A DNA stretch of 64,000 nucleotides from Saprospiraceae bacterium UBA2329. Lineage in GTDB: Bacteria > Bacteroidota > Bacteroidia > Chitinophagales > Saprospiraceae. The position numbers and the translations under genes are program-made. The DNA lies in assembly GCA_002344975.1 (NCBI GenBank), contig DDUV01000057.1, forward strand, positions 1 through 64,000. The letters are read 5' to 3'. The notes under the pieces are model-generated. The model did no database searches, was not told the DNA's origin, and was given only the letters and a program-made list of their open reading frames with translations. Each line of letters starts with the position of its first letter. The first letter of the stretch is position 1. Positions 5,283 to 39,617 of this stretch are shown here, piece after piece.

Positions 5283-6065
5283 CTACAAAGCTTTTATATT
5301 TTCTGCACTTGCCGTGCCCTGATAGTATTTGCCATTCTCCAAATAGAGCACAGATACCCCCGGGCGCTCCATACCCGTCAATTTTTGAAGCTCGTTTTCG
5401 ACCAATCCGGTTTCTGATATTCCTGTCAGATCATCCATAGTGGTCCATTCTATAACGGCTGCATCAGGAGATTGAGTAGGGTATTCGCCATCTTTAGTTT
5501 GAATTGATCGGTTTCTACCTTCAAACTTAGCAAGCCGAAACTCTTCCATACTGTCTTCCTGGCTGCCAATATATGTGCTCATAAAACTTTTCCTTATCAA
5601 TGGATCGAAACTTTCTTCAAGCTGATCGAAACAAAAGGCCTTGATGTAATAGACCCTGTCATTGTAGCTAATTGCCATTGCATACCTGATCGTGTTTGTC
5701 ATTTTATCATGCACCACAGAAAAGAGACCGTTATCCTCCCCATCATAATTTACCCGGCTCAGCTCCAGCAAAACGCTCTTCTTTTCTCTCAAGGCGCTCG
5801 GAGTAATACGGGCTTTTATTTCTTCCAATGACCTCATACTCATCGTTACAGAAATAGATGAAAGTGCATTCGTTGTTTGGTACCCGTCAAACGAGCGCGC
5901 TTTTTCATATCCATTTGGTACTACCATCCATACCCCCCTGCCCAAATGAACACTTTGATCTGTTTTTTGAGGCGAGATACGGAGGTTGCCTTCTTTGTAA
6001 TTCGAACACGAGCCGGCAAGTATCAAAACGATAAGCACGGATAAGCAAAGTCGTAAGTCATTCAT
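5283..6065 (-). CDS. Hypothetical lipoprotein
   Basis: N-terminus MNDLRLCLSVLIVLILAGSCS carries a lipobox-like Cys. No recognisable catalytic motif. Confidence 0.5.
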   Translation of the reverse strand: MNDLRLCLSVLIVLILAGSCSNYKEGNLRISPQKTDQSVHLGRGVWMVVPNGYEKARSFDGYQTTNALSSISVTMSMRSLEEIKARITPSALREKKSVLLELSRVNYDGEDNGLFSVVHDKMTNTIRYAMAISYNDRVYYIKAFCFDQLEESFDPLIRKSFMSTYIGSQEDSMEEFRLAKFEGRNRSIQTKDGEYPTQSPDAAVIEWTTMDDLTGISETGLVENELQKLTGMERPGVSVLYLENGKYYQGTASAENIKAL

Positions 6066-6193
6066 AAAAACTGTTTTTTAGTTGCCGATAAATTCTTGGC
6101 AGGGTGAAAGCGCTCACTTCATCAGCAACTCATCCACGTTCACGCCGGGATTCTGTATCTTGGTCATTTACACGGGGCCCATTTGCTGCGGGC

Positions 6194-6230
6194 GAAGTCA
6201 GGAGGTAACAGGAAGTTACCGCCTGACTTC
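6194..6230. repeat. 37-bp near-perfect palindromic element (copy 1) GAAGTCAGGAGGTAAC-AGGAA-GTTACCGCCTGACTTC
   Basis: About 16-bp inverted arms. An almost identical copy (1 nt different) lies at 12446-12482. It sits just downstream of the flotillin gene stop on the minus strand. Confidence 0.7.
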
Positions 6231-6237
6231 CAGCACG

Positions 6238-7806
6238 CTAACTCCCTGCTTGCTCTTCGCTTGCAGGCGCATCGGCAGCTTTGGGGTTGCCGAGGTATTT
6301 GGGCAGTTCCATGCCCGCCATGTTGAACAGGTCGTTGAGCGGCGGCACCGATTTATACAGCCCCGATACAAAGCGGGAGGTAGAATTGCCCTCGCCGTCG
6401 GAGTGGTTGCCACCGTCCCACACGGTCACTTTGTCTATCTTGATGTTCTTGATAGCATCCACCTGCGTTTTCACTAAGTCTTCGATCTTGTCGGCAATCA
6501 GCATCAGCACGGCGTCGCGGGTATTGCCGCCGGCCGCCTGCACGATTTTGTCAAAACCCTCGGCCTGCTTGCTGAGTATCTCATACAAACCGCGGGCCTC
6601 GGCTTCCTGCTTGAGGAAGATGGCATCGGCCTCGCCCTTGGCCAAGCGGCGGGTTTGTTCGGCCTGCGCTTCGGCTTCGATTTCCATTTTGCGGCGCTGT
6701 ATTTCGGCCTGCACGATGATGTCTGCTTCTTTAGTGGCGCGTTCGCGGGCGGCGCGAGCCTCTTCGGCCTTTTTCTCTGCCAGATAAGCGTCTTCCAATG
6801 CGTTGGCCGTTTGGATTTTTTCAGAAGAAACGGCCGTTTTGTTGGTCTCGGCTTCGCGGATACGGCGGGCCGCTTCCGATTCTGCAATGGTGATTTTGGC
6901 TAAGTTTTCACCCTCGATGGCCTTGGCGCGGGCCGCCGCCTCGCCCACCTGCGCTTCAGACATTGCCTCCGATACCTTGATGCGCTCCTGCATGGCGGCC
7001 TCTGCCTCTTTGATGCGCAGTTCGGCCTGCGAATTGGCGATGGTCACGCGGCTTTGGTTTTCACCATCCACGGCCTGGGCATTGGCAGCCGCCTCGCCCA
7101 CTTTGGCAAAGGCTTCTGCTTCCGATACCTTGATGCGCTGGTCTTTTTTGGCGTTGGCTTCACCGATGGAGCCGTCGCGGGTTTTTTCTGCTACGCTCAT
7201 GCGGGCGTCGTTCACAGCTTTTGCGGCAGCCTCTTTGCCCAATGCTTCTATGTAGCCCGATTCATCCTGAATGTCGGTGATGTTCACGTTGATGAGCGCG
7301 AGGCCGATTTTTCTGAGTTCGGCGCCCACGTTGGTAGAGACATTGGAGAGGAATTTGTCGCGGTCGGAGTTGATTTCCTCAATATCCATGGTGGCTACCA
7401 CGAGGCGGAGCTGACCAAAAATGATGTCTTTGGCAATGTCGCGGATTTCTTCCATAGACTTGCCCAGCAGGCGTTCGGCGGCGTTTTGCATCACGCCTTC
7501 TTCGTTGGAAATGGCCACAGTAAAGCGCGAGGGCACGTCCACGCGGATGTTTTGCTTACTCAGTGCGCGCCGCAGGTCCACATCTATGGAAATAGGGGAG
7601 AGGTCTAAGTATTCGTAGTCCTGAATGACCGGCCATACGAATGCCGCTCCGCCCGCCAGACATTTGGCCGAGCCGGAACCCGTGCGCCCGTAAATGACGA
7701 GCACTTTGTCGGAAGGGCATCGCCGATAGCGGGAAATAACAAAAGCGAGAGTCATAAAAACCAGTAAAACCAGTCCTACGACGAGGATAATCAGAGAAGT
7801 TCCCAT
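6238..7806 (-). CDS. yqiK: Flotillin-like SPFH/band-7 protein (YqiK-type)
   Basis: N-terminal TM (MGTSLIILVVGLVLLVFMTLAFVI), then an SPFH domain, then a long Ala/Glu-rich coiled coil with repeated EAEA…IKVSEA motifs. Start moved to the internal ATG; the track ORF starts further upstream. Confidence 0.75.
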   Translation of the reverse strand: MGTSLIILVVGLVLLVFMTLAFVISRYRRCPSDKVLVIYGRTGSGSAKCLAGGAAFVWPVIQDYEYLDLSPISIDVDLRRALSKQNIRVDVPSRFTVAISNEEGVMQNAAERLLGKSMEEIRDIAKDIIFGQLRLVVATMDIEEINSDRDKFLSNVSTNVGAELRKIGLALINVNITDIQDESGYIEALGKEAAAKAVNDARMSVAEKTRDGSIGEANAKKDQRIKVSEAEAFAKVGEAAANAQAVDGENQSRVTIANSQAELRIKEAEAAMQERIKVSEAMSEAQVGEAAARAKAIEGENLAKITIAESEAARRIREAETNKTAVSSEKIQTANALEDAYLAEKKAEEARAARERATKEADIIVQAEIQRRKMEIEAEAQAEQTRRLAKGEADAIFLKQEAEARGLYEILSKQAEGFDKIVQAAGGNTRDAVLMLIADKIEDLVKTQVDAIKNIKIDKVTVWDGGNHSDGEGNSTSRFVSGLYKSVPPLNDLFNMAGMELPKYLGNPKAADAPASEEQAGS

Positions 7807-7835
7807 AGGATTGAAGCGTTTTATGATGATGTAAT

Positions 7836-8429
7836 TCAGTCTTGCCGGGTCACCAACAAAATATTGTCGGGCAGCACGTCGGTCACGAGAATTTTCGTGC
7901 CGGTGGGGATGTAGGGGCCGTCCGTTACGGCTTCCCATTCGCGGAGTACGTTGCGGGTTTTTACGGTGACGCGGCCTATACCGCTGCGCCCGCCGGGTAT
8001 GGCGAGATATACATCGCCGGCTTGATAGATGGCTTCATGCGCCGTCACGTTGTCTTCCTGGCCCAGCCGTGAAAACCAGAAAATGAGGTAAGCCACCAGA
8101 AACATGGCGATGCCGCCCATGAGCAGGCCCAGCAACAGCGCCAGCCACAGGCTGATACCCGCGCCGAGCATGAGTACGCCCGTCCAGCCGAGGAAAGCAA
8201 AAAACGCGATGATACTGCGCACCGAAAAAACCGAAAAAGAGTGGTCGTGGTCTAATCCGCCGTCATGGCTCAGGTCTCCGGCGTCGGAGTCTCCGTCAAA
8301 ATCCAACCCCGTGAGTGTCAGAATAAACTGTATGAGCATCAGCACCGTAAAGACCACGGCAATGATCCAGAAAATCTGTTCCGGCCTTTGCATGGCCATC
8401 CACCATTCGCTCACCGTCAGTAGTATCAT
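7836..8429 (-). CDS. yqiJ: NfeD-like membrane protein (YqiJ-type), partner of flotillin
   Basis: Several TM helices and a C-terminal OB-fold-like region. Lies 27 bp upstream of the flotillin gene on the same strand, which is the conserved yqiJK arrangement. Confidence 0.55.
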   Translation of the reverse strand: MILLTVSEWWMAMQRPEQIFWIIAVVFTVLMLIQFILTLTGLDFDGDSDAGDLSHDGGLDHDHSFSVFSVRSIIAFFAFLGWTGVLMLGAGISLWLALLLGLLMGGIAMFLVAYLIFWFSRLGQEDNVTAHEAIYQAGDVYLAIPGGRSGIGRVTVKTRNVLREWEAVTDGPYIPTGTKILVTDVLPDNILLVTRQD

Positions 8430-8745
8430 CTTTGAGGGTTGAAAAGCCTTTGTATTATGGCCCGCAAAATGTAAAATGGTCTTGCTGTCTCGTGTATTGA
8501 TTCGATGAAAGGGGGTATTTTATCGGCGAAATTGTAAATCTGTTTTGGGAAATTCATCATGCGGCGGTACAAAGCGGGCTTTTGTTTTTCATTGTCCCCG
8601 GCTCGAAAATAAAAGCAATACGCTCATTTTTTGTCCCCTGTCGGACATACGAAGCCATAAAATTTTGGCTGTTCCCACACATTTGCTTAACATTGTGCCC
8701 TTGATTGGTAAACCTATTGCCAGAGTAGATTTAAATAAATGATGC

Positions 8746-11700
8746 ATGATGCGAAACTTACTCTTAATCAGCTTTTTACTGTTGTCGGCTGTGGCCGCTG
8801 TAGCGCAAACGTCGCTGGGTGGAACCATGACGGACGGTGACTCCAAAGAGCCGGTCATCGGCGGTACGGTACTCCTGTTCAAAAACGGGGTACAAATTAC
8901 AGGTACTACTACCGATTTCGACGGCACTTACAGCATTACCAACCTTGATCCGGGCACCTACGATGTAGAGGCCAGCTATCTGGGCTACCAGAGCCAGCGG
9001 GTTGAAAAGGTGGTCATTTTTGCCGGCAAGGCCAACAAATTGGACTTTGTCATGTCTGCCGGAGTACTCCTCACCACCGTTGAGGTCAAAACCTACCGGG
9101 TGCCTTTGGTGGAGCAGGACAATACCACGCAGGGCCAAACCATCACCAGCGAGCAAATCCGCAACCTGCCCACGCGCAACATCAACGCGCTGGCAGCCAC
9201 CACGGCGGGTCTGGCTTCCGCCGATGAAGGTGGGGCCATCACGGTGCGCGGTTCCCGCTCAGATGCCACCAATTACTATGTGGACGGTATCCGCATTCAG
9301 GGCAACCTCATTCCTGAGTCGGAAATTGACCAAATGCAGGTCATTACCGGCGGTATGGAAGCCCAGTATGGCGACGTGACGGGCGGTATCATTTCCATTA
9401 CCACCAAAGGCCCTTCACAGAAGTTTTCGGGCGGTGTGGAACTGGAAACTTCCAAATACTTCGACGCTTATGCCAACAGCTTGGTGGGTATCAACCTCAC
9501 CGGTCCGATCTGGAAAAACAAAAAGACCGGGGAGTCCATTCTCGGCTATCGCTTCTCCGGCCGCTGGACGCATCAGGTGGATGACCGTCCGCCTGGAATC
9601 CCCGTGTACAATGTAACGGAGGAGAATCTCAAGGCACTCGAAGCCGACCCTATCCTCCGCATCAATAACAGCCCCTTTGTGGCCGCCGACTTTATGAAAG
9701 CCGATGATGTGGATGCGCTCAAAGCGCGCCCCTATGAAACGCTGCGCCGTTACGACGTGACCGCCAAAATTGACGCACGCCTCAGCAAGCAGATTGACAT
9801 TTCGTTTACGGGGGCATTTACCAACACGGAAAACCAGTTTACGCCCGGTGGCTGGCGCGTGTTCAATAGTCACAACAACCCTACGTCTTTCGCCGGCACG
9901 CGTCGCGGCTCCGTTCGCCTGCGCCACCGTTTGGGCGGCGCTGCGGGTGGCGACGATAAAAAATCGGTTATTCAGAATGCTTCGTATTCTTTGCAATTCG
10001 GCTACGAGCAAGAGTTTTACGAAGACTACGATCCGCGCCACGGCCAAAACCATTTTGCTTATGGCCATGTAGGCAATTACGACATACAATGGGTGCCCAC
10101 GTTTGAAGCAATGGTGGATCAGACAACTGGAGAAGTTTCGTTTGTCCACTCGGATAACCGTCAGGTGCTGCGCGGCTATTCCAATGCCGGGTCTTCCAAT
10201 CCGGTATTGTCCAATTACAACAACGCATTGGGCCTTGACTTTTCGGAGGGCCTGAACGGGCAGATTCCCAATGTCATCATTGCCGGTGTAAACGACGGCA
10301 TTGAGAACATTCTCCGCCGGGAAGCCTTCATTGCGCCCAACGGCACCATTTCCAACCAGTTCACTTCTTCCTGGAACTTCCACACCAATGTAGGCACGGT
10401 ATTCAATCGCGTACTCAAGTCGGAAGATGATGTAACGACCTTCAACGTCAATGCTTCGTTCGACCTCGTTCCGAAAGGTGGCGCAGGTAAAGGCCGCCAC
10501 AACATCCAGTTCGGCGCCTGGTATGAGCAGCGCACCAACCGCCAGCACAACGTAGCGCCCCGCGGTTTGTGGGATGTGGCCCGCCAATTGGCCAACAACC
10601 ATATTCTCGGTATTCCGGTGGACGCAGACGGCAACCCGACTTCTCCTGTGATCGGCACCACGCAAGTGACCAACCCGGTGACGGGTGAAGAAGTGACCGT
10701 TGACCTTCACGATGTACAAATCGTGGAAAACGCCGAAGCCGCATTTTACCGCCGCCTGCGCAGTTCTTTGGGTATCACCAACCTGGGGCAATATGTAAAT
10801 GTGGACGGCCTCAATCCGAGCCAGATGAGCCTCAATATGTTCTCTGCCAAAGAATTGAATGACCAGAACATCTTGGGCTACTATGGTTATGACTACCTCG
10901 GCGGAAAATTTGACGGCACCTTTGAAGATTTCTTCACAGCTACCGATGCTGATGGTATCCGCACTTTCCCGGTAGCGCCCAACCGCCCGATTTACCAGGC
11001 ATTCTACATTCAGGACAAGTTCACTTTCCGCGACATCATCTTCCGCCTCGGTTTGCGCGTTGACCGCTACGACGCCAATACCAAGGTGCTCAAAGACAAT
11101 TATTCGCTGTACGAAATCATGGGCGCAGGTGAGTTTCATGATCGTTTTGGTGGTGATCGTCCCGGCAATATCGGCGACGACTTCAAAGTATATACCGCCG
11201 GCGCCGGCAGCGACAATGTGCAAGCCTATCGCGCCGGTGACCAATGGTACCTGCCCAACGGCACGCCCGTGAACAACGTGGCCCTGGCCATTCCTTCCGG
11301 CGTGGTAACGCCCAAATATCAGGATGCCCGCATTGACGACAACATCAACTTCATTCGCGCCCGCGATTTCGATCCGAACGTGAGCTTCAAGGACTACGAA
11401 GTGCAAACCAACTTCATGCCGCGTCTCGCTTTCTCGTTCCCGATTTCCGAAGATGCGAACTTCTTCGCCCACTACGACGTGTTGGTGCAGCGCCCGCCGA
11501 CCAACACCATCGCCACAGCGCTTGACTATTTCTACTTCTTCGACCGCAGCGGCATCCGCAACAACCCCAACCTCAAGCCCGAGCGTACCATTGACTATGA
11601 GGTGGGTTTCAAACAAAAGCTGACCAATGCTTCGGCGCTCACCATTACGGCATATTACAAAGAAATGCGCGACATGATTTCTTCGCGGATTTTCTTCCCC

Positions 11701-32357: not shown

Positions 32358-33448
32358 CTCTTACCCGCTTCAATACCATGCTTGGCCGGGTCTTTCAGCC
32401 TGTCCCGAAGGGTAGAAAGCGCCACCACATCGGCTTGAGTCAGTACCTTGAATTTTGCATTCAGGATAGCGTCCAGTTCCGCGCCGGCCTCGGCTGCTGT
32501 ATGCCAGAAGCTCGTTTCGGCCTGAGTCAGATCAGATACGATGCGGGTTTTCATGGTTTGGAGCGGCTGTTCAAAGAGTGCGTCAGGACTGCTTTGCGCA
32601 TTGATTTTGCTCAGCAAATCTTTACAAACGCCGCTGCCGAGCATACAATGCCCGCCGTAATCCCAAGTCTGAATCTGCCAGGCCGGGAAGAAATACTCGA
32701 TGCTGTCGTCGGGGAAGGCGGCAATTTGGAGGTCCATAAAAATGTCATCCTGTACGCCTTTGGTTTTTTTGGAAAGAGCCAGCCACTGCCGATAATCCAA
32801 AAAGAGGTAGTACGCGGTCCCCTCGGCCACCAATTGCGGCTGGAAGCCCGTGAACAGCTCCGCCAGCCAGAACATGTCGGGCATATCCTCGGCAGAAGTA
32901 GGCGGAATGCGCCGTTGCAGCACCTCGTTGATGGTGTCGCGCAGGGCCGTACTTTGTTCCAGCAGGCGGCTCAGGTCGGCTTCGTTGCGGGTAGCGGCCC
33001 AGTTGCGGCGGTGTTGGTTGATGCTCTCCACGAGCGGCTGTCCGAGCATGGCTGTGGCGCGTTTTTGCAGGAGGGCGCGGGTGGCGGGCGAGTTTTGGGA
33101 GGCGTCAAAAATGAGTCCTCCGCCATACACCCAGCCCGTTTGGCCGGAGGAGGTTTTCACCTTGATCCAGGGTTCGTCAAAAGTGATACCGCGCAAAGTG
33201 ACCCGCGTGGTGAAATCGCTCACTTCGCCCAGGTCTTCCAGTTTGGCGCCTTTGGGCAGGGTGGCCACGATGACGCCTTTTTCGCCGGGCGTTTCGCGCA
33301 TGCGGAGGTCGGACACGGCCGTTTCAAACTGCACCGGCCCTTTGTCGGTCATGGTTTCGGTAGAGGCGGCCTGTTCTGCGCCGGCATTTTTGGGGCGACA
33401 GCCGAACAGCAGGGCGGCAGGTATCAGCAATAGAAGTAAGGTACGCAT
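32348..33448 (-). CDS. Hypothetical lipoprotein with SH3b-like domain
   Basis: MRTLLLLLIPAALLFGC lipobox; an SH3-like stretch (MRETPGEKGVIVATLPKGAKLEDLGEV). Confidence 0.5.
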   Translation of the reverse strand: MRTLLLLLIPAALLFGCRPKNAGAEQAASTETMTDKGPVQFETAVSDLRMRETPGEKGVIVATLPKGAKLEDLGEVSDFTTRVTLRGITFDEPWIKVKTSSGQTGWVYGGGLIFDASQNSPATRALLQKRATAMLGQPLVESINQHRRNWAATRNEADLSRLLEQSTALRDTINEVLQRRIPPTSAEDMPDMFWLAELFTGFQPQLVAEGTAYYLFLDYRQWLALSKKTKGVQDDIFMDLQIAAFPDDSIEYFFPAWQIQTWDYGGHCMLGSGVCKDLLSKINAQSSPDALFEQPLQTMKTRIVSDLTQAETSFWHTAAEAGAELDAILNAKFKVLTQADVVALSTLRDRLKDPAKHGIEAGKRNG

Positions 33449-33610
33449 GATGTGATTGTTTATTGAAATTGGTTGGAATGTTCCGGGCGACAGGCAAAGC
33501 GGAATAGTAAGAAGTCAAAAAAGTATTCGATACTTTCCTGAACACTCTAAGTTAGTAATCAGCACCGCGCCACACGCGCGGCAAGCATCAGCAATCAGCA
33601 CATCTACACA

Positions 33611-34129
33611 TTAGAAATCCTTTTTGCCCATCAGTATTTTGAAATCAATTTTGCCCTGCATCAGCTTCAGGTGCTCCACTACGGCTACGGCCCGGATAAG
33701 GCGGGTTTCGGCAGTTTTCGGCGAGCCGACGTAATAGAGCATAGTGCGCAACTTGCCGGGCGTGAGGGCGTGCAGACAGCGATGGCCCTCCTCGTCTTGT
33801 CGCAGCAATTCCTCCAACTCTTCGGGCATGGGCAGGCCGTATTCGCTGTCGTCTTTCCACAGGGTGACCTCTAACGGTGAGCCGATTTTGATGCGGAGCT
33901 GATCGCGCAGTTTTTTGTTCACATTGATAAAAAACGCCCCCTCGCCTTTGGGCATCAGCGCGCACTGAAAAGGCTTGCTGCCGTTGAGGATGCACACCAC
34001 GCGGCGCTTGTTGCCCTCCACAAAGACCTGCCCGATGGCGGCCGGCACTACAAAGTGATGCCCCCACAACGCCGAGTCGAAGTCCTCGAGCAGGGAAGTG
34101 AATTGAACGGCAGATTCGGGTGCTTGCAT
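33611..34129 (-). CDS. YdeI/OmpD-associated family protein (DUF1905 + DUF1801-like)
   Basis: …HHFVVPAAIGQ…CILNGSKPFQCALMPKGEGAFFINVNKKLR…; 172 aa. Confidence 0.5.
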   Translation of the reverse strand: MQAPESAVQFTSLLEDFDSALWGHHFVVPAAIGQVFVEGNKRRVVCILNGSKPFQCALMPKGEGAFFINVNKKLRDQLRIKIGSPLEVTLWKDDSEYGLPMPEELEELLRQDEEGHRCLHALTPGKLRTMLYYVGSPKTAETRLIRAVAVVEHLKLMQGKIDFKILMGKKDF

Positions 34130-34276
34130 GTGGTTGAGAACAAGTTGAACTTCAAAGTTCGGATTCTTTGTGGTATCTTTGTTCCTAATAATGAAAAAAA
34201 CTCAATTTGTTTTATGAAAACATACCCAAAGACGGTTGCGGAATTTTTTTCTCAAACGCATATCTAATTATCTGCT

Positions 34277-35017
34277 ATGCATAAGACCCGCAATAGTGCG
34301 ATCCTGATAGGATTATTTTTATCAAGGTTTGATGAAGATGGCCTTAACGCACTTGGCTTTAGCGGATTTTGGGAAGCATTCAATACGTTAGGATATGCCA
34401 TAGGAGTGAAGCCTTCCTCTATAAAAAATTACAGAGACGAGTTTGATCCGTATTATCCAAATACAAGAAAAGGCTGGCACAAAAGAAGCCTTAGAGACTA
34501 TTGCAAGGTCGTCATGGAGGAATATGCGAGTTATGATTTACACTCATTTACTGAGATTATCAAGGAGTTATTGATTAATAACTATGAAGTTGAACGAATA
34601 GAGGAAATGATTATTGATAAGAAAAGTACAAGCTCAATTGCGCAAAGACTTATAACAGGCCAATCCGCGGAAGCCTATTTCAAGGAGAATTACTTGACAG
34701 TGCCACAGTTCCAGAATTACGCCTTTAAAGACACTACTTTGCTGGGATGTGGCTTCGATTTCCTCCTTACACGTCAAACTGATTTTTTTTGTATTGAAGT
34801 GAAAGGGCTTCACAGCAAATCAGGTACGATATCGCTGACGGAGAAGGAGTATCAAATGGCTGAAAAGCTGAGCGAGCATTTTTGCTTGTATGTTGTGTCT
34901 AATTTTTGCGAGCAACCTATTGCCAATGTAATAATCAATCCCTTAGAATCTGGGTTGGATTTTGTAAAAGATGAGAGGCTTATTACTGTTGTGTCATTTC
35001 AAACCTACATAAGATGA
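34277..35017 (+). CDS. Predicted PD-(D/E)xK nuclease, DUF3883 (NO VEIN C-terminal)-like, gene 1 of low-GC island
   Basis: C-terminal half …GCGFDFLLTRQTDFFCIEVKGLHSKSGTISLTEKEYQMAEKLSEHFCLYVVSN… gives D…(E)VK plus the downstream 'LT.NE…A' pattern, characteristic of DUF3883 restriction-endonuclease-like folds. AT-rich codon usage unlike the flanking DNA. Confidence 0.5.
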   Translation: MHKTRNSAILIGLFLSRFDEDGLNALGFSGFWEAFNTLGYAIGVKPSSIKNYRDEFDPYYPNTRKGWHKRSLRDYCKVVMEEYASYDLHSFTEIIKELLINNYEVERIEEMIIDKKSTSSIAQRLITGQSAEAYFKENYLTVPQFQNYAFKDTTLLGCGFDFLLTRQTDFFCIEVKGLHSKSGTISLTEKEYQMAEKLSEHFCLYVVSNFCEQPIANVIINPLESGLDFVKDERLITVVSFQTYIR

Positions 35018-35775
35018 ATGTAGATAATCAGTCCAACTATACATTGGCCTTTGAGGATGGCTGGGATGCGCTTCAGCCTCAAATCGTCAATGATCAGGAT
35101 TTTTTAAAAGCTGTTTTATTGATGCTTGATTTGATGAAACAAGATAAAAATATTGACCCCAGCAGATATTGTGATGAAAACGGCAATTTGAAAAGTTACG
35201 TCGAACTGTGTAAGTATAAAAAACTTCAGTTGGTCTATAATCCTGAATATCCAACATGGAAGATCATTCATACGCTACTCTCCCAAGCAATAAATGAAGG
35301 TAAAGCAGGGGCCGTTGCATATCATTTGGTTGGAGCAACTTTGCAATTGAGATTCCCGGACATTGAAATCTCAAATGAATCAGCGAATACCGCAGATCAG
35401 CCAACAGGAAGATCGGGCGATTTCACTATTGGCGACACTGTTTTTCATGTCACGGTTCATCCAATGACCTCTGTTTTTGATAAGTGCAGGGAGAATATCA
35501 AGGATGGGCTTAAAGCATTTTTGCTGGTTCCAGATTCCAGTTTGACGGGTTCTCGGATGTGGGCATTAAAAGATGGCGTGGAGCTTTTTGCGGTAGAATC
35601 TTTAGAGTCGTTCATTTCTCAAAACATTGAGGAAATTAGTGCATTTGATCCTAAATACCGGAAAAACAGCCTTTTCAACTTGATCTATTTGTACAATCAA
35701 AGGGTTGACCAAGCTGAAACAGATAAGTCGCTCATGATCGAATTACCCTCCAATTTGAAGGTGTCAAATGGCTGA
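35014..35775 (+). CDS. Hypothetical protein, gene 2 of low-GC island (no recognisable family)
   Basis: 253-aa ORF. Its start overlaps gene 1 by 4 nt (ATGA) and its end overlaps gene 3 by 8 nt, indicating translational coupling. No motif I can assign. Confidence 0.5.
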   Translation: MNVDNQSNYTLAFEDGWDALQPQIVNDQDFLKAVLLMLDLMKQDKNIDPSRYCDENGNLKSYVELCKYKKLQLVYNPEYPTWKIIHTLLSQAINEGKAGAVAYHLVGATLQLRFPDIEISNESANTADQPTGRSGDFTIGDTVFHVTVHPMTSVFDKCRENIKDGLKAFLLVPDSSLTGSRMWALKDGVELFAVESLESFISQNIEEISAFDPKYRKNSLFNLIYLYNQRVDQAETDKSLMIELPSNLKVSNG

Positions 35776-36175
35776 TGTTTTCACTCCCGAAAAACGTAGC
35801 GAGGTTATGCGAAGAGTAAAGTCTTCCCGCAACGCATCCACGGAACTGAAACTGATACAGTTTTTCAAAAATCATAAAATTAAAGGATGGAGGAGAAGTT
35901 ATCCTCTCGTTGGGAAGCCTGATTTTGTCTTTCCTAAACAAAGAATTGTCATATTCGCAGATGGTTGCTTTTGGCATGGCCACGATTGCCGAAATACTAA
36001 ACCCGCTCAGAATCGCACATATTGGGAATCCAAGCGAGACAGGAACATTGCCAGAGATATCTTGGTAACCAATGCTTTACAAAAAAAAGGATGGACTGTA
36101 ATTCGTATATGGGAATGTGAATTGAAAAAAGGTAGCTACGAATCTCGTTTGCTCAGCGCGTTACAATCGGATTAG
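35768..36175 (+). CDS. vsr: Very-short-patch-repair (Vsr) DNA mismatch endonuclease
   Basis: MADVFTPEKRSEVMRRVKSSRN…GKPDFVFPKQRIVIFADGCFWHGHDC…TVIRIWECELKK reproduces the hallmark Vsr motifs of E. coli Vsr (MADV…, GRPDFV, HGCFWHHH, W..K…N..RD, WRVLIVWEC). Confidence 0.9.
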   Translation: MADVFTPEKRSEVMRRVKSSRNASTELKLIQFFKNHKIKGWRRSYPLVGKPDFVFPKQRIVIFADGCFWHGHDCRNTKPAQNRTYWESKRDRNIARDILVTNALQKKGWTVIRIWECELKKGSYESRLLSALQSD

Positions 36176-36219
36176 AATTGATTTGATCTCCCCCAAAACA
36201 TCGTACCTTTGCCATCCTT

Positions 36220-37623
36220 ATGGCAAAAAAAACTTTCATAGCGGAGCAGGTGCGCATCACCGGCATAGCAGAAAAAGGGCGGGGCGTAGGCCGAGACGCT
36301 GAGGGACGCGTATTTTTTGTACCCGATACCGTGCCCGGCGATGTAGTGAATGTGCTGACCCTGCGCAAGAAAAAGGGATTTTTTGAAGGCGTGGTGCATG
36401 CCGTGCTGGAAAGCTCGCCGGAGCGTGTGCAGCCCTTTTGCCGGCATTTCGACCTCTGCGGCGGATGCAGTTGGCAGCACTTAGACTATGCCGCCCAATT
36501 GCACCACAAACAACTGATGGTAGAAAACGCCCTGTTGCGCATCGGTAAATTGGAAGTAGAAGATTTTCAGCCCATCACAGGCGCTGATCCCAATGTATAT
36601 TACCGAAATAAATTAGAGTTTTCCTTCTCCAACCGCCGCTGGCTCACCAAAGAGGAAGTTGACTCTGAGGTGACCAACCTGGAGGATGTACTGGGATTTC
36701 ACAAATCGGGAGCCTTCGACAAAGCCATTGATATTGAACACTGCTGGCTGCAACCCGATCCTTCCAACGCCATCCGTCTGGCCGCCAAACGTATCGCTGT
36801 AGCGCAGGGTCTTGCCTTCTGGGATGCCCGCGACAACAAGGGTTTTGTGCGCAATCTCATGCTGCGCGTGGCCACTACTGGGCAGGTCATGGCGCTGATG
36901 AGTTTTTCCGAAAATCGCAAAAAAGCCATCTCCGCTTTTTTGGATGCATTGCAGGAGGCCTGCCCGCAGATCACCTCGCTGTACTATTGCATCAATCACA
37001 AGGTCAATGATTTTATGTTCGACCTCGACATGATCCTGTATCGCGGCGAGCCTGCTATCGAGGAGCAGTTGGGCCATGTACGGTGCCGCATCGGGCCGAA
37101 ATCTTTTTTCCAGACCAACACCAGGCAGGCTAAGGTACTGTTCGATACGGCTGCCGAGTTTGCCGGGCTGCAAGGCCACGAAAACGTGTATGATCTCTAT
37201 ACCGGAATCGGCAGTATAGCGTTGTATCTGGCGGGGCGTTGCCGACAGGTGACGGGCATTGAGGAAATAGCCGCCGCCATTGACGATGCGCGCGACAACG
37301 CGGCCCTCAACGGCATTGATAATTGCACTTTTTACGCCGGAGACGTGAAGGACATGCTCACGCCGGAGTTTGCTGAAAAGCATGGCAAACCCGATGTGCT
37401 CATCACCGATCCGCCGCGGGCGGGCATGCACCCCAAAGTGGTGGACATCCTGCTGGAATTGGCCGCGCCGCGCATCGTGTATGTGAGTTGCAATGCCGCC
37501 ACCCAGGCCCGCGATCTGCAATTGCTCTCGGCAAAATACCGCGTGCTCAAAGTTCGCCCGGTGGACATGTTTCCGCATACGCACCATGTGGAGAGCGTGG
37601 CACTGCTGGAGCTTCAGGGGTGA
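36220..37623 (+). CDS. rlmD: 23S rRNA (uracil-C5)-methyltransferase RlmD/RumA family (TRAM + [4Fe-4S] + class I MTase)
   Basis: TRAM-like N-terminus, the Cys cluster CRHFDLCGGCSWQHLDY, and a C-terminal MTase with DPPRAGM. Stop TGA is embedded in the GGGTGAGT repeat. Confidence 0.85.
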   Translation: MAKKTFIAEQVRITGIAEKGRGVGRDAEGRVFFVPDTVPGDVVNVLTLRKKKGFFEGVVHAVLESSPERVQPFCRHFDLCGGCSWQHLDYAAQLHHKQLMVENALLRIGKLEVEDFQPITGADPNVYYRNKLEFSFSNRRWLTKEEVDSEVTNLEDVLGFHKSGAFDKAIDIEHCWLQPDPSNAIRLAAKRIAVAQGLAFWDARDNKGFVRNLMLRVATTGQVMALMSFSENRKKAISAFLDALQEACPQITSLYYCINHKVNDFMFDLDMILYRGEPAIEEQLGHVRCRIGPKSFFQTNTRQAKVLFDTAAEFAGLQGHENVYDLYTGIGSIALYLAGRCRQVTGIEEIAAAIDDARDNAALNGIDNCTFYAGDVKDMLTPEFAEKHGKPDVLITDPPRAGMHPKVVDILLELAAPRIVYVSCNAATQARDLQLLSAKYRVLKVRPVDMFPHTHHVESVALLELQG

Positions 37624-38191: not shown

Positions 38192-39007
38192 ATGACCAAA
38201 CTCAATTTGCTTGTCCTGGCTTTGCTTTGCTGCGGTTTCATCACAAGCATGGCCCAAAACGACAAACACATCACGGTCAGCGAAGAACCTACCGACGATG
38301 GCGTGATCCTCTACATCGAGAACATTGGAGTGTGTCCCTACACAGTGGAGTTTGATGCCGAACTCACCAATGTTCGCGCCGATAAAGCCCTGCCGATGAG
38401 CATAGTAGTACCCGCCGGAATGCGCATGGAATTGCTGCGCTTGGAACCAAAACCCAATGCTCGCTGGGGGTATCGGTACAACTTCAACTACTACATGGGC
38501 GATGCGTTCAATGCCCGTCACGATGGGCTGTACGTATATCAGTTGCCCTATGAAAAGGGTGCTTCTTTCGTCGTGGGGCAGGGCTACAACGGCGATTTTA
38601 GCCATCGCGGCGAAAAAGCGCTTGACTTTGTGATGCCCGTTGGAACGCCTGTCCATGCGGCGCGCGAGGGTATGGTCATCAAAGTGAGATCGGATTCCAA
38701 CCGGGGCTGCGGGTCCGAATCCTGTCGCGACGACGGCAACTATCTGCTCATTCTTCACAGCGACGGCAGCATAGCCAACTACGCGCACTTCAAGCATCGC
38801 GGCGTGGCGGTGAAGGAGGGCGAGGTGGTAGCTCAGGGCCAATTGATCGGTTACAGTGGCAATACCGGCTGGAGTTCCGGGCCGCATCTGCACTTTCAGG
38901 TGTATGTGCCGGGCTTGGGCAATAAGCGCAACAGCGTGGCTACCTATTTTCGCACGGCGTCATCGGAGTCGGTGCTGCTGAGGGAAAAACAGAGTTACAA
39001 ATGGTAG
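38192..39007 (+). CDS. M23 family metallopeptidase (secreted)
   Basis: Signal peptide; HxxxD-like …GEKALDFVMPVGTPVHAAREG… and a C-terminal HLHFQV motif. Confidence 0.8.
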   Translation: MTKLNLLVLALLCCGFITSMAQNDKHITVSEEPTDDGVILYIENIGVCPYTVEFDAELTNVRADKALPMSIVVPAGMRMELLRLEPKPNARWGYRYNFNYYMGDAFNARHDGLYVYQLPYEKGASFVVGQGYNGDFSHRGEKALDFVMPVGTPVHAAREGMVIKVRSDSNRGCGSESCRDDGNYLLILHSDGSIANYAHFKHRGVAVKEGEVVAQGQLIGYSGNTGWSSGPHLHFQVYVPGLGNKRNSVATYFRTASSESVLLREKQSYKW

Positions 39008-39520
39008 TCAATCGTATAGAAACGGCTCGTCGCCCTCTGCCATTCGGCGAACATTTTCAAGCACCTGATTCATATATTTTTTATAAAACACTTTTGCGAA
39101 AAGCCATTGAAGGGGTATAAAAACAAAGCCTTTAGCGTGAATGGTGTAATCGTAATTGATTTGTATTTTATTGGGCGAAAGCTCCGTCGTTGTCCATTCA
39201 AAAGTGAACTGCCAAATATCCAGCATCCACGACTTGAAATTGCCCACTTCTGCTTTCCAATATTTGTTTTCAATGCGCTCAATAATCTTGTCGGTTGATA
39301 CCTCGCCGCCTTTAAAAGTTAATGATTTGTCGGCATAAACATTTTTTATAGAACCGACTTTGCCCCAACCCTCATCATTGGTTGTTTTGGTGACTTTCGG
39401 CATCAGTCCGAACCCTGTATGCACTTTGGTAACATCGCAAAGTATGGGCGCTTTAAAAGCTCGTTCAAGCGAGCAATGGTAAATGGCTGTGGTGTGTATT
39501 TTAAAATCCATTTTATTCAT
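39008..39520 (-). CDS. Hypothetical protein, SRPBCC (START/Bet v1)-like fold suspected; AT-richer than its neighbours
   Basis: 170-aa ORF. Its stop abuts the M23 gene stop (convergent, 0-bp gap). Alternating beta/alpha pattern; no catalytic motif. Confidence 0.4.
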   Translation of the reverse strand: MNKMDFKIHTTAIYHCSLERAFKAPILCDVTKVHTGFGLMPKVTKTTNDEGWGKVGSIKNVYADKSLTFKGGEVSTDKIIERIENKYWKAEVGNFKSWMLDIWQFTFEWTTTELSPNKIQINYDYTIHAKGFVFIPLQWLFAKVFYKKYMNQVLENVRRMAEGDEPFLYD

Positions 39521-39617
39521 TTTTTGAGTTTTCAGTGTCAGTAAAGTGTATGCGTAGTGAAGGGGTGACTACGGGCTGTGATCTTGGCAGAGTCACCCTT
39601 TCACTAAGCTGCCCGCC

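What the first reader, a model, noticed from the sequence alone, without database searches (positions are those of the whole stretch)
34130..36180. AT-rich 3-gene island (PD-(D/E)xK DUF3883-like nuclease – unknown – Vsr) without a methyltransferase: candidate undescribed defence/restriction-like module
Between a conserved gene (33611-34129) and rlmD (36220) lies about 2 kb whose base composition is visibly AT-rich, with many AAA/AAT/GAT codons and T-runs, against a GC-rich background. That suggests horizontal acquisition. The three genes are translationally coupled (ATGA overlap at 35014; 8-nt overlap at 35768). Gene 3 is an unmistakable Vsr T/G-mismatch endonuclease, yet no cytosine-5 methyltransferase is present anywhere in this 64-kb window. 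Gene 1 has a DUF3883/NOV-C type PD-(D/E)xK nuclease core (GFDFLL…CIEVKG…LTEKEYQMA) behind a roughly 130-aa N-terminal domain of unknown function. Gene 2 (253 aa) matches nothing I recognise. A nuclease + unknown + Vsr-fold operon without a methyltransferase is not a canonical Dcm-Vsr or Type II R-M layout. It could be a modification-dependent (Type IV-like) restriction system, or a new defence system that recruits a Vsr-family nicking nuclease as effector.
Basis: partly seen in the sequence, partly recalled or inferred. Interest (0 to 1): 0.85.

Follow-up and report, generated by a model that had tools for sequence, protein, structure and literature searches.

The report
Nuclease cassette replacing a restriction-modification junction
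The island is a cytosine-methylating restriction-modification operon whose methylase gene and the front of its restriction gene were swapped for an uncharacterised nuclease gene, and relatives of that nuclease sit in the same position inside broken restriction operons of several unrelated families in many bacterial phyla.

Summary
Window 34130-36180 is the most AT-rich 2 kb of the window (GC 0.39 vs 0.53). It carries three overlapping + strand genes and no intact C5-methyltransferase (MTase).

Gene 2 is not unknown. It is a DUF4928 Type II restriction endonuclease (REase) lacking about 69 internal residues. A 12-codon MTase relic (34214-34249) precedes gene 1.

Metagenome contigs from closely related strains carry, at the same site, an intact MTase - long DUF4928 - Vsr operon. 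In the window, 1,044 bp replace 1,595 bp of that operon. The incoming segment holds gene 1 (a new N-terminal domain plus a NOV_C/DUF3883 nuclease) and the 5' part of a short DUF4928.

Across 79 species genomes:
- 41 copies of gene 1 follow a C5-MTase that keeps only its N-terminus.
- 38 precede an REase (DUF4928, R.HinP1I or "Ya") that keeps only its C-terminus.

Intact operons of the DUF4928 and Ya families lack gene 1. Gene 1 is under purifying selection without an MTase.

Its N-terminal domain also heads an MTase-less McrB/LlaJI-type pair, and DUF3883 is the catalytic domain of known modification-dependent enzymes. My best reading is therefore inferred, not shown: a Type IV-like, m5C-directed nuclease cassette that is allelic to the R-M operon, like DpnI/DpnII. 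A selfish homing-type cassette is the main rival.

The parts
34130..34213 (+). AT-rich upstream region of the operon, presumed to hold the promoter. It is shared with the intact R-M allele.
   Evidence: It lies inside the left homology block, window 33071-34249 = L092 6-1164 at 94.7%. GC falls from here on. The sigma-70 consensus scan gave nothing useful here.
34214..34267 (+). 17-codon leader ORF. Codons 1-12 (34214-34249, MKTYPKTVAEFF) are the relic of the C5-MTase up to the start of motif I. Codons 13-17 (SQTHI) and the stop are cassette-side sequence. The ORF ends 9 nt before the gene 1 ATG.
   Evidence: The sequence is identical to the start of the 391-aa MTase of L092 (MKTYPKTVAEFFAGIGLMRIGLE...) and then diverges. 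L095 shows the same junction.
34250..35293 (+). Cassette-specific segment of 1,044 bp. It replaces 1,595 bp of the intact operon (MTase codons 13-391 and REase codons 1-~163).
   Evidence: blastn of L092 and L093 against the window shows homology ending at 34249 and resuming at 35294. L092 against L095 gives the same two break-points.
34277..35017 (+). Gene 1 (246 aa). It has an all-helical N-terminal domain (~1-141) with the motif KPxSIKNYRDEFDPxFxNxRxGW, followed by a NOV_C/DUF3883 PD-(D/E)xK nuclease (D161, E174, K176). It is the cargo of the cassette.
35014..35775 (+). Gene 2 (253 aa), a short-form DUF4928 Type II REase homologue that lacks about 69 internal residues of the 322-aa long form. 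It is a mosaic. The 5' part (to about 35350) matches the cassette allele L095. The 3' part (35400-35750) is 98-100% identical to the intact REase of L092.
35768..36175 (+). Gene 3 (135 aa), the Vsr T/G-mismatch endonuclease. It is the native third gene of the R-M operon and keeps the same 8-nt overlap with the REase gene as in the intact allele.
   Evidence: TIGR00632 at 109.4 bits, above the cutoff. L092 has R at 2273-3241 and V at 3234-3641. Vsr alignment.
33611..34129 (-). Left chromosomal neighbour (DUF1905/OmdA protein). It marks the insertion site shared by both alleles.
   Evidence: Pfam. The same neighbour is present in L001-L005, L092 and L094-L097.
36220..37623 (+). Right chromosomal neighbour (RlmD-like 23S rRNA U5-methyltransferase with a TRAM domain). 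It is not a DNA MTase.
   Evidence: PF05958 and TRAM. It is homologous to the gene that follows Vsr in L092.

Best explanation
SHOWN. The island is a chimeric allele of a horizontally acquired Type II m5C restriction-modification operon, made of a C5-MTase, a DUF4928 REase and Vsr, with overlapping genes. Closely related strains carry the intact operon at the same chromosomal site. In the window, the stretch from MTase codon 13 to about REase codon 163 has been replaced by a 1.04-kb cassette. The cassette encodes gene 1 (a new N-terminal domain plus a NOV_C/DUF3883 nuclease) and the 5' part of a deletion variant of the REase. The exchange occurred by recombination within the homologous gene ends, and the window's gene 2 is itself a recombinant between the cassette allele and an intact allele.

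The gene 1 family is widespread. It characteristically sits exactly on the M/R junction of C5 R-M operons from at least three unrelated REase families. The MTase keeps only its N-terminal part and the REase keeps only its C-terminal part. The cassette therefore removes methylation and classical restriction together.

INFERRED. Gene 1 is a reader-plus-nuclease enzyme of the modification-dependent (Type IV-like) kind, most likely directed against m5C-containing DNA, and so incompatible with the MTase it displaces. It is expressed from the old R-M promoter by translational coupling to the MTase leader relic. On this reading the cassette and the intact operon are complementary alleles, as DpnI and DpnII are in pneumococcus. 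One allele marks self DNA and cuts unmarked DNA. The other leaves DNA unmarked and cuts marked DNA.

The short DUF4928 protein and Vsr are retained parts of the old operon. They may or may not have been co-opted into a new function.
For: 1. Same locus, two alleles. L092 6-1164 matches window 33071-34249 (94.7%) and L092 2760-4595 matches window 35294-37139 (91%). L092 encodes M (391 aa, starting MKTYPKTVAEFFAGIG...), R (322 aa) and V (135 aa). L092 against the cassette allele L095 gives a 99.3% identical left flank and the same break-points.

2. Mosaic. Window 35400-35750 is 98-100% identical to L092 but only 66-81% (98% in the last bin) to L095. Window 34300-35300 is 96-100% identical to L095.

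3. Generality (79 genome loci). 41 loci have a C5-MTase relic directly upstream; the 36 detected by tblastn all start at residue 20 or earlier. 38 loci have an REase remnant downstream that runs to the C-terminal end of the enzyme: Ya 15, R.HinP1I 18, DUF4928 5. No MTase relic reaches the end of its cognate enzyme: the profile end-points range from 39 to 271 of 298, and the three longest cover residues 1-295 of 325. Intact operons of the DUF4928 and Ya families lack gene 1. In the least-deleted loci the insert removes only the last ~30 MTase codons and the first ~4-6 REase codons.

4. Gene 1 is maintained without an MTase. dN/dS is 0.05-0.12, including between loci that share the same truncation junction (dS 0.2-0.9), and the catalytic D...ExK motif is invariant.

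5. Reader-plus-nuclease logic. DUF3883 is the catalytic domain of the modification-dependent REases YenY4I and McaZI (PMC6765204). Gene 1's N-terminal domain recurs in 568 representative proteins. One of them has it at the N-terminus of an 883-aa AAA_5 (McrB-like) protein, followed by an RE_LlaJI (McrC-like) gene with no MTase nearby.

6. Only C5-MTases were seen upstream. No other DNA MTase type appeared among the 25 families listed for the neighbours of relic-free loci.

7. Coupling. MTase relic ORFs end within 0-25 nt of the gene 1 ATG in most loci. Many independent deletions stay in frame with a shared Ala-Ala-stop.

8. Precedents. Complementary DpnI/DpnII systems (PMC3812788) and conflict between an R-M system and a methylation-dependent REase (PMC8989522).
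Against: No biochemical evidence exists for modification dependence. The N-terminal domain has no structural match to any known modified-base reader, and McrB-type N-domains can also read unmodified sequence.

L019, L022 and L029 keep MTase residues 1-295 with all ten motifs next to an intact gene 1. L080 has an intact C5-MTase two genes downstream. Under the conflict model these MTases must be inactive or have a non-target specificity.

The conflict model does not explain how the cassette reaches the M/R junction of unrelated R-M families.

Low dN/dS of gene 2 and Vsr is not decisive, because MTase relics show the same low values.

Replacing M and R in a fully methylated cell with an m5C-dependent nuclease should be dangerous at first.
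Confidence: 0.45

Rival explanations
1. Selfish, homing-type cassette. Gene 1 is a site-directed nuclease that cuts intact C5 R-M operons near the M/R junction. Repair from a cassette-bearing copy, through the flanking MTase 5' and REase 3'/Vsr homology, copies the cassette in. It spreads as a parasite of R-M operons, and its arrival disarms both toxin and antidote at once, so the cell survives.
Against: A sequence-specific homing enzyme would not be expected in three or four R-M families with unrelated REase genes and MTases that differ outside their conserved motifs. The family is old and diverged (45-60% identity), and it is absent from 2.9 million viral contigs, where free-standing homing genes abound. 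The MTase truncation points vary widely, which is not the precise junction that homing produces. The same N-domain serves in a McrB/LlaJI-type restriction pair. No terminal repeats or target duplication were found.
Confidence: 0.25
2. Genes 1-3 form one integrated, MTase-independent defence system. The NOV_C nuclease, the remodelled DUF4928 protein and the Vsr-fold nickase act together, with gene 2 as specificity partner and Vsr as effector or co-effector.
For: In the window's clade the three genes stay together at uniform lengths (245-248, 248 and 133-135 aa) with overlaps or short spacers, in loci whose MTase is reduced to 110 aa, 48 aa or nothing (L006/L007, L012, L013). dN/dS is 0.05-0.13 for all three at dS 0.7-2.4. 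The short-form-specific N-terminus of gene 2, which cannot be refreshed from intact operons, still shows constraint (pN 0.17-0.22 against pS 0.58-0.76; omega about 0.23). Residues that are invariant in long-form REases are kept in the short form.
Against: Outside this clade, gene 1 is followed by a 75-aa Cys-rich ORF, by a 71-aa ORF, or by REase remnants of other families truncated to any length. Vsr is undetected in 57 of 79 loci and fragmentary in several others. MTase relics show equally low dN/dS, so the statistic is confounded by recombination with intact operons, which is seen directly in the window's gene 2. PADLOC recognises the parts only as Type II REase, Vsr and a NOV_C domain, and no library scanned holds a model of the three-gene set.
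Confidence: 0.12
3. Plain decay. The locus is a dying R-M operon. Gene 1 is simply an alternative or second REase, or an accessory gene, of C5 R-M systems. It happens still to be intact, and the three ORFs have no current function.
For: The MTase is reduced to 12 codons and gene 2 lacks 69 residues. Relatives show every stage of erosion of M, R and V. Distant relatives of gene 1 are components of Dcm-linked multi-gene clusters.
Against: An REase that outlives its MTase should be lethal, yet gene 1 is intact in about 77 of 79 loci while its MTase is truncated in every locus with a relic. Gene 1 shows strong purifying selection after shared truncation events. Intact operons of the DUF4928 and Ya families do not contain gene 1, so it is an insertion and not an original member.
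Confidence: 0.1

Closest known systems
DpnI / DpnII complementary restriction cassettes of Streptococcus pneumoniae (Lacks et al. 1986, as cited in PMC3812788)
   Same: Conspecific strains carry one of two alternative gene sets. One set has an MTase plus an REase that cuts unmethylated DNA. The other has no MTase and, in DpnI, a nuclease that cuts methylated DNA. Exchange is by homologous recombination. That the two Dpn cassettes occupy the same chromosomal locus is taken from the title of the cited 1986 paper and from my own knowledge; the term 'same locus' was not found in the paper read. Here L092/L093 (M-R-V) and L095/window (no M, NOV_C nuclease) are alleles of one site.
   Different: The modification here would be m5C, not m6A. 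Modification dependence of gene 1 is untested. The cassette lies inside the remains of the R-M operon, whose 5' and 3' ends serve as homology arms. As I recall (not checked here), the Dpn cassettes are instead bounded by common flanking chromosomal DNA. The same nuclease family is found in R-M operons of several unrelated REase families and in many phyla.
Modification-dependent (Type IV / IIM) REases with a DUF3883 catalytic domain: YenY4I and the McaZI group (PMC6765204)
   Same: They use the same C-terminal PD-(D/E)xK DUF3883/NOV_C nuclease domain behind an N-terminal DNA-sensing module, have no cognate MTase, and occur in defence contexts.
   Different: Their sensors are PUA-superfamily and DUF3427 domains. 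Gene 1 has an unrelated all-helical domain with no Pfam model and no structural match. Gene 1 is only 246 aa.
Type II m5C R-M operons with Vsr (M.HhaI/HinP1I-like MTase + REase + Vsr)
   Same: The locus is derived from one. The promoter region, the first 12 MTase codons, the 3' two-thirds of the REase gene and the whole vsr gene are still there in native order and overlap.
   Different: There is no MTase, the REase has lost about 69 residues, and a foreign nuclease gene lies between the two remnants.
Free-standing homing endonuclease genes
   Same: A nuclease gene is present or absent at a fixed position between two host genes. Flanking homology is used for transfer and co-conversion tracts are seen.
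   Different: The family is not found in phage or viral contigs. The targets would be several unrelated operons. The flanking genes are truncated to variable extents rather than left intact.
McrBC / LlaJI-type GTP-dependent restriction
   Same: Gene 1's N-terminal domain is found where McrB-family proteins carry their DNA-reader domain. P0344 combines this domain with AAA_5 and is followed by an RE_LlaJI gene.
   Different: Gene 1 has no NTPase. It couples the reader domain directly to a nuclease.

Membership tests
Type II restriction-modification system | A functional cognate DNA methyltransferase gene | tested here: not met
   Only codons 1-12 remain (34214-34249). No C5-MTase was found among the ORFs of 40 aa or more in the 64-kb window.
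Type II restriction-modification system | A restriction endonuclease gene of a recognised family, adjacent to the MTase gene | tested here: inconclusive
   Gene 2 matches PF16280 and PADLOC REase_II and has an REase fold. It lacks about 69 residues that are highly conserved in the long form. Its activity is unknown.
Vsr (TIGR00632 / PF03852) | Profile score above the curated cutoff over the full length | tested here: met
   109.4 bits against 97.85, residues 1-118 of the protein matching profile positions 1-119 of 119. The FADGCFWHGH block is conserved with the Vsr of intact operons.
Vsr (TIGR00632 / PF03852) | T/G mismatch nicking in the sequence context of a co-resident C5-MTase | not testable with these tools
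   No MTase is present in the window, and the rest of the genome was not available.
DUF4928 (PF16280) | Full-length match to the family profile | tested here: not met
   The score is far above the cutoff (208.8 against 25), but only profile positions 124-306 of 306 are matched. The N-terminus aligns only weakly and co-linearly (hhalign E 2e-4), and the central 69 residues are absent. Gene 2 is a deletion variant (the 'short form') of the family.
NOV_C / DUF3883 PD-(D/E)xK nucleases (PF13020) | Profile match above the cutoff, the catalytic D...(D/E)xK motif, and the restriction-endonuclease-like fold | tested here: met
   [not shown]
Modification-dependent (Type IV/IIM) restriction endonuclease | A nuclease domain fused to a DNA or modification reader domain, with no cognate MTase | tested here: inconclusive
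The architecture and the lack of an MTase fit. Its fold matches no known reader.
Modification-dependent (Type IV/IIM) restriction endonuclease | Cleavage requires modified (for example m5C) DNA | not testable with these tools
   This needs enzyme assays or in vivo methylation-dependent toxicity tests.
DpnI/DpnII-type complementary cassettes | Alternative gene sets at one chromosomal locus in closely related strains, one with and one without an MTase | tested here: met
   L092/L093 against L095/L096/window. The flanks are 91-99% identical and the break-points are the same.
DpnI/DpnII-type complementary cassettes | The MTase-less cassette restricts DNA methylated by the other cassette | not testable with these tools
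Homing endonuclease gene | The nuclease cleaves the allele that lacks it and is copied in by repair | not testable with these tools
   Only the population pattern (presence/absence, recombinant tracts) could be shown.
Tiamat (PADLOC TmtA) | A large (>1,000 aa) TmtA protein matched over its length | tested here: not met
   The hits cover only the last ~100 positions of 1,063-1,782-position profiles, that is, the shared NOV_C domain.
Insertion sequence / transposon | Terminal inverted repeats, target-site duplication and a transposase | tested here: not met
   There are no inverted repeats, only chance-level short direct repeats, and no transposase.

The most novel reading that the evidence does not exclude
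The gene 1 family defines a previously unrecognised class of mobile cassette that specifically targets cytosine-methylating restriction-modification operons. It lands on the MTase/REase gene junction and removes antidote and toxin in one step, which evades post-segregational killing. It takes over the operon's promoter and then spreads between related operons through the remaining gene ends. Its nuclease would act either as a homing enzyme or as an m5C-dependent 'anti-methylase' weapon. This would be a parasite, or a competitor, of selfish R-M systems, present in hundreds of species across more than ten phyla.
Probability: 0.3. Interest if true: 0.9.

Novelty: new variant of a known kind. Interest (0 to 1): 0.72.

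Why it matters
R-M systems are regarded as addictive. Losing the MTase while the REase persists kills the cell, so it has been unclear how genomes get rid of them or swap them.

This locus, with its intact sister allele, shows a one-step route. A single replacement removes the MTase and the front of the REase gene and installs a different nuclease. The same nuclease family marks the same position in broken C5 R-M operons of at least three unrelated REase families, in dozens of the species genomes examined and across many phyla. The pattern is therefore recurrent, not an accident.

If gene 1 is m5C-dependent, it would supply three things:
- A compact (246-aa) modification-dependent enzyme with a new reader domain, which could be useful as an epigenetic tool.
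- A cytosine-methylation counterpart of the DpnI/DpnII system.
- A natural case of 'epigenetic conflict' resolved by gene replacement rather than by silencing.

If it is instead a homing-type element, it would be the first known parasite of R-M operons.

Either way the predictions are directly testable by cloning three small genes.

Tried and rejected
1. 'Gene 2 is a simple 5'-truncated REase or a fusion with an unrelated small ORF.' Rejected. Its N-terminus aligns co-linearly with the long form (hhalign E 2e-4) and the difference is an internal ~69-aa gap. It is unrelated to the 75-aa Cys-rich ORF found after gene 1 elsewhere.

2. 'MTase fragments are 5'-truncated C-terminal pieces.' Rejected. 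All start at motif I.

3. 'Gene 1's N-domain is a leftover of the MTase.' No similarity was found.

4. Transposon or IS origin. No inverted repeats, target duplication or transposase were found.

5. Phage origin. There are no relatives in 2.9 million viral contigs, and only two distant ones on plasmids.

6. Sequence search of the PDB found nothing for genes 1 and 2. Fold searches found no match for gene 1's N-domain. The AFDB library was unavailable.

7. The search for an empty-site allele through the flanking DUF1905 protein returned only cassette alleles.

8. The sigma-70 promoter and terminator scan was uninformative, which is expected for a Bacteroidota-type host.

9. dN/dS of gene 2 and Vsr as proof of function had to be downgraded. 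The MTase-relic control gave equally low values, probably because the arms recombine with intact operons.

10. The literature search for DUF4928 found one irrelevant mention. Nothing was found that describes this cassette.
Full report
**1. The observation**

Window 34130-36180 has GC 0.392, against 0.531 for the whole window and 0.526/0.527 for the flanks. It is the lowest of 620 sliding windows of the same size.

It holds three + strand ORFs: 34277-35017 (246 aa), 35014-35775 (253 aa) and 35768-36175 (135 aa). They overlap by ATGA and by 8 nt.

- Gene 3 is Vsr (TIGR00632, 109.4 bits, above the cutoff).
- Gene 1 has a NOV_C/DUF3883 nuclease core at residues 151-214 behind a ~140-aa N-terminal domain.
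- A C5-MTase profile iterated over all ORFs of 40 aa or more in the window found nothing.

Two points need correcting.

- Directly upstream of gene 1 lies a 17-codon ORF (34214-34267) that begins MKTYPKTVAEFF.

**2. The locus is a rearranged R-M operon**

DUF4928 proteins come in two forms:

- a long form of 316-322 aa;
- a short form of about 248 aa that lacks ~69 internal, highly conserved residues (...GASG..RPFAKEGGRTNRGG...).

The long form sits directly behind a full-length C5-MTase. This is seen in Haliscomenobacter hydrossis and in contigs L092/L093, where the order is MTase (391 aa), DUF4928 (322 aa), Vsr (135 aa), with overlapping genes.

L092 is the same chromosomal site as the window:

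- L092 6-1164 matches window 33071-34249 at 94.7%.
- L092 2760-4595 matches window 35294-37139 at 91%.

Its MTase starts MKTYPKTVAEFFAGIGLMRIGLE... The window keeps codons 1-12 and then diverges.

Thus window 34250-35293 (1,044 bp) stands in place of 1,595 bp of the intact operon. The window segment comprises five codons and a stop, a 9-nt spacer, gene 1, and the first ~93 codons of gene 2. The replaced segment is MTase codons 13-391 plus REase codons 1-~163.

Contigs L095/L096 carry the cassette allele at the same site. L092 and L095 have a 99.3% identical left flank and the same two break-points. They are therefore alternative alleles in closely related Saprospiraceae strains from sludge and bioreactor metagenomes.

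The window's gene 2 is itself recombinant:

| Window segment | Identity to L095 (cassette) | Identity to L092 (intact) |
|---|---|---|
| 34300-35300 | 96-100% | not homologous |
| 35400-35750 | 66-81% (98% in the last bin) | 98-100% |

The intact operon is also AT-rich (GC 0.41-0.42), so the whole R-M locus is foreign to this genome, not only the cassette.

**3. The pattern is general**

Gene 1 has 636 database homologues of uniform length (~248 aa). It was found in at least 340 species genomes of Bacteroidota, Nitrospirota, Patescibacteria, Verrucomicrobiota, Acidobacteriota, Elusimicrobiota and others, at 45-60% identity.

I annotated 79 of these loci with profiles and tblastn.

*Upstream.* In 41 loci a C5-MTase relic lies directly upstream on the same strand.

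- The 36 relics detected by tblastn all begin at the native N-terminus (motif I); the other 5 are short motif-I peptides.
- None reaches the end of its cognate enzyme.
- The break-points differ from locus to locus, from profile position 39 to 271 of 298.

*Downstream.* In 38 loci an REase remnant follows. Each runs to the C-terminal end of the enzyme and lacks from 0 to about 217 N-terminal residues. Three unrelated families are involved:

- DUF4928 (5 loci);
- R.HinP1I, PF11463 (18 loci);
- 'Ya' (15 loci).

The MTase relics fall into at least four sequence subtypes, and these tend to go with particular REase families.

Ya is the REase partner of an M.HhaI-like MTase. More than 3,000 Ya homologues of ~250 aa exist. 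On long contigs the arrangement is MTase (325 aa) - Ya - Vsr, with overlapping genes and no gene 1, often inside defence islands.

In the least-deleted cassette loci (L019, L022, L029):

- The MTase matches residues 1-295 of 325.
- A ~1.16-kb segment follows, carrying gene 1 plus a conserved 75-aa Cys-rich ORF.
- The REase then resumes at residue 4-7, without its start codon.
- The left junction is exact. The intact sequence reads ...AACATGGTGAAA|GCTGTT... and the cassette allele reads ...AACATGGTGAAA|CAAGCGGCGTAG....

Vsr is detectable in 22 loci and is fragmentary in several. The Cys-rich ORF is present in 22 loci and a different 71-aa ORF in 5.

In loci with no relic, the neighbours are ordinary housekeeping genes. 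No other class of DNA MTase appeared among the 25 Pfam families listed.

So gene 1 characteristically sits on the M/R junction of C5 R-M operons, and the losses extend outward into both genes. Intact operons of the DUF4928 and Ya families do not contain it. I did not look at intact R.HinP1I operons.

**4. Selection**

Among MTase-less loci of the window's clade (L006, L012, L013), dN/dS is 0.05-0.13 for gene 1, short DUF4928 and Vsr, at dS 0.7-2.4.

Between loci that share the same MTase truncation junction, gene 1 has dN/dS 0.05-0.12 at dS 0.2-0.9 (L023/L025, L054/L082, L045/L055).

A control weakens part of this. The MTase relics themselves show dN/dS of about 0.09. The likeliest reason is the recombination with intact operons that the window itself shows. 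If so, low values in the 'arms' (MTase relic, REase 3' part, Vsr) do not prove that they function in the cassette.

Gene 1 is absent from intact operons such as L092, L009 and L105, so it cannot be refreshed from them. Its constraint, its uniform length and its invariant D161/E174/K176 argue that it works without an MTase.

The short-form-specific N-terminus of gene 2 also cannot be refreshed. It shows weaker constraint (omega about 0.23), which leaves room for a co-opted role in this clade.

**5. What gene 1 is likely to do**

The N-domain carries the near-invariant motif KPxSIKNYRDEFDPxFxNxRxGW. It has 568 relatives among 1.8 billion representative proteins, in several architectures:

- fused to NOV_C;
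- duplicated in tandem;
- as the C-terminal half of ~240-aa proteins;
- at the N-terminus of an 883-aa AAA_5 (McrB-like) protein.

The gene for that 883-aa protein is followed by an RE_LlaJI (McrC-like) gene, with no MTase nearby. That is the position where McrB-family enzymes carry their DNA-reader domain (established knowledge of McrBC/LlaJI, not tested here).

DUF3883 is the catalytic domain of the experimentally studied modification-dependent enzymes YenY4I and the McaZI group (PMC6765204).

Taken together with the exclusive association with disabled C5-MTases, the most economical mechanism is that gene 1 is a reader-plus-nuclease enzyme acting on m5C-containing DNA. It could not coexist with the resident MTase. 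This is inference.

Expression probably uses the old R-M promoter and translational coupling:

- The MTase relic ORFs end 0-25 nt before the gene 1 ATG in most loci.
- Many independent deletions remain in frame with a shared Ala-Ala-stop.

**6. Difficulties**

- Three loci keep MTase residues 1-295 with all motifs. One locus has an intact C5-MTase nearby.
- The model does not explain how the cassette reaches the same junction in unrelated R-M families. Either selection allows only insertions that destroy M and R together, or the nuclease itself targets such operons. The second option is the homing-type rival. It also fits the allele polymorphism and the recombinant tracts, but fits poorly with the diversity of targets, the variable break-points and the absence from viral contigs.
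- No transposon features are present.

**7. Comparison with known systems and novelty**

The locus fails the Type II R-M membership test because it has no MTase. It contains a bona fide Vsr, a deletion variant of DUF4928 and a bona fide NOV_C nuclease.

The closest functional analogue is the pneumococcal DpnI/DpnII pair of complementary systems (PMC3812788). The closest conceptual frame is conflict between R-M systems and methylation-dependent nucleases (PMC8989522).

I found no description of this nuclease family, of its N-terminal domain, or of its systematic placement inside disrupted C5 R-M operons. The literature library searched is incomplete.

**8. Verdict**

Its interpretation is partly supported. 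This is not a de novo three-gene system built around Vsr. It is an R-M operon taken over by an uncharacterised nuclease cassette, and the cassette is itself a good Type IV-like candidate.

- The structural and evolutionary account is well supported (about 0.9).
- The m5C-dependent mechanism is a reasoned inference (about 0.45).
- The main rival is a selfish homing-type cassette (0.25).

Noticed in passing
window 39000-39600: This is a second, smaller GC dip (0.40-0.42) about 3 kb downstream of the island, in otherwise ~0.53 GC sequence.
   Followed up: no
window 34183-34202 and 36215-36234: A 20-nt imperfect direct repeat (15/20 identical; TCCTAATAATGAAAAAAACT and TCCTTATGGCAAAAAAAACT) brackets the whole R-M island. 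The copies lie just before the MTase relic and at the rlmD start. It may be chance or the trace of the original island insertion.
   Followed up: no
L001-L004 (same locus in public assemblies), locus coordinates 10755-11162: The intact 135-aa vsr ORF is not among the genes listed for these contigs in the public gene-position collection. It is listed in L094-L096. This is an annotation gap, not a sequence difference.
   Followed up: partly
L073:4991-5974: A single 327-aa ORF fuses a Vsr domain (N-terminal) to a C5-MTase that is truncated after motif VI. It lies directly upstream of a gene 1 homologue.
   Followed up: no
L080:6752-8328: Here a gene 1 homologue is followed by a 158-aa C-terminal fragment of a C5-MTase and then by an intact 367-aa C5-MTase. 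This is the reverse orientation of the usual relic pattern, and a case of coexistence with an intact MTase.
   Followed up: no
[not shown]
   Followed up: partly
L102-L104, genes at 6001-8652 and 8652-10130 (coordinates in L102 and L103): An MTase-less pair consists of an 883-aa protein (gene 1-type N-domain + a PDC-S02-like middle region + AAA_5) and an RE_LlaJI-family protein. It looks like a McrBC/LlaJI-type restriction system with a novel reader domain.
   Followed up: partly
L019:6723-6950, L022:6610-6837 and 20 other loci: A conserved 73-79-aa Cys-rich ORF (W-E-C-x-L-C ... H-P-L-C-x-x-C, probably a zinc ribbon) is translationally coupled (ATGA) to gene 1 homologues. It has no significant Pfam family; the only hit is weak, to Gin (E 0.022). 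It could be a partner or inhibitor of the nuclease.
   Followed up: partly
L105-L112 and L114: The intact M.HhaI-like MTase - Ya - Vsr operon of Chitinophagaceae lies next to an Mrr-type (Type IV) nuclease gene and a SduA_C (Shedu-like) gene. This means a C5 R-M system and a putative methylation-dependent nuclease sit side by side in one defence island.
   Followed up: no
window 33500-33600: The intergenic stretch between the SH3_3 gene and the DUF1905 gene is only 74% identical between strains whose neighbouring sequence is 96-100% identical. It is a local hypervariable spot.
   Followed up: no
P0247 (431 aa), from the representative-protein search: This protein carries two tandem copies of the gene 1-type N-terminal domain and no recognisable catalytic domain.
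   Followed up: no
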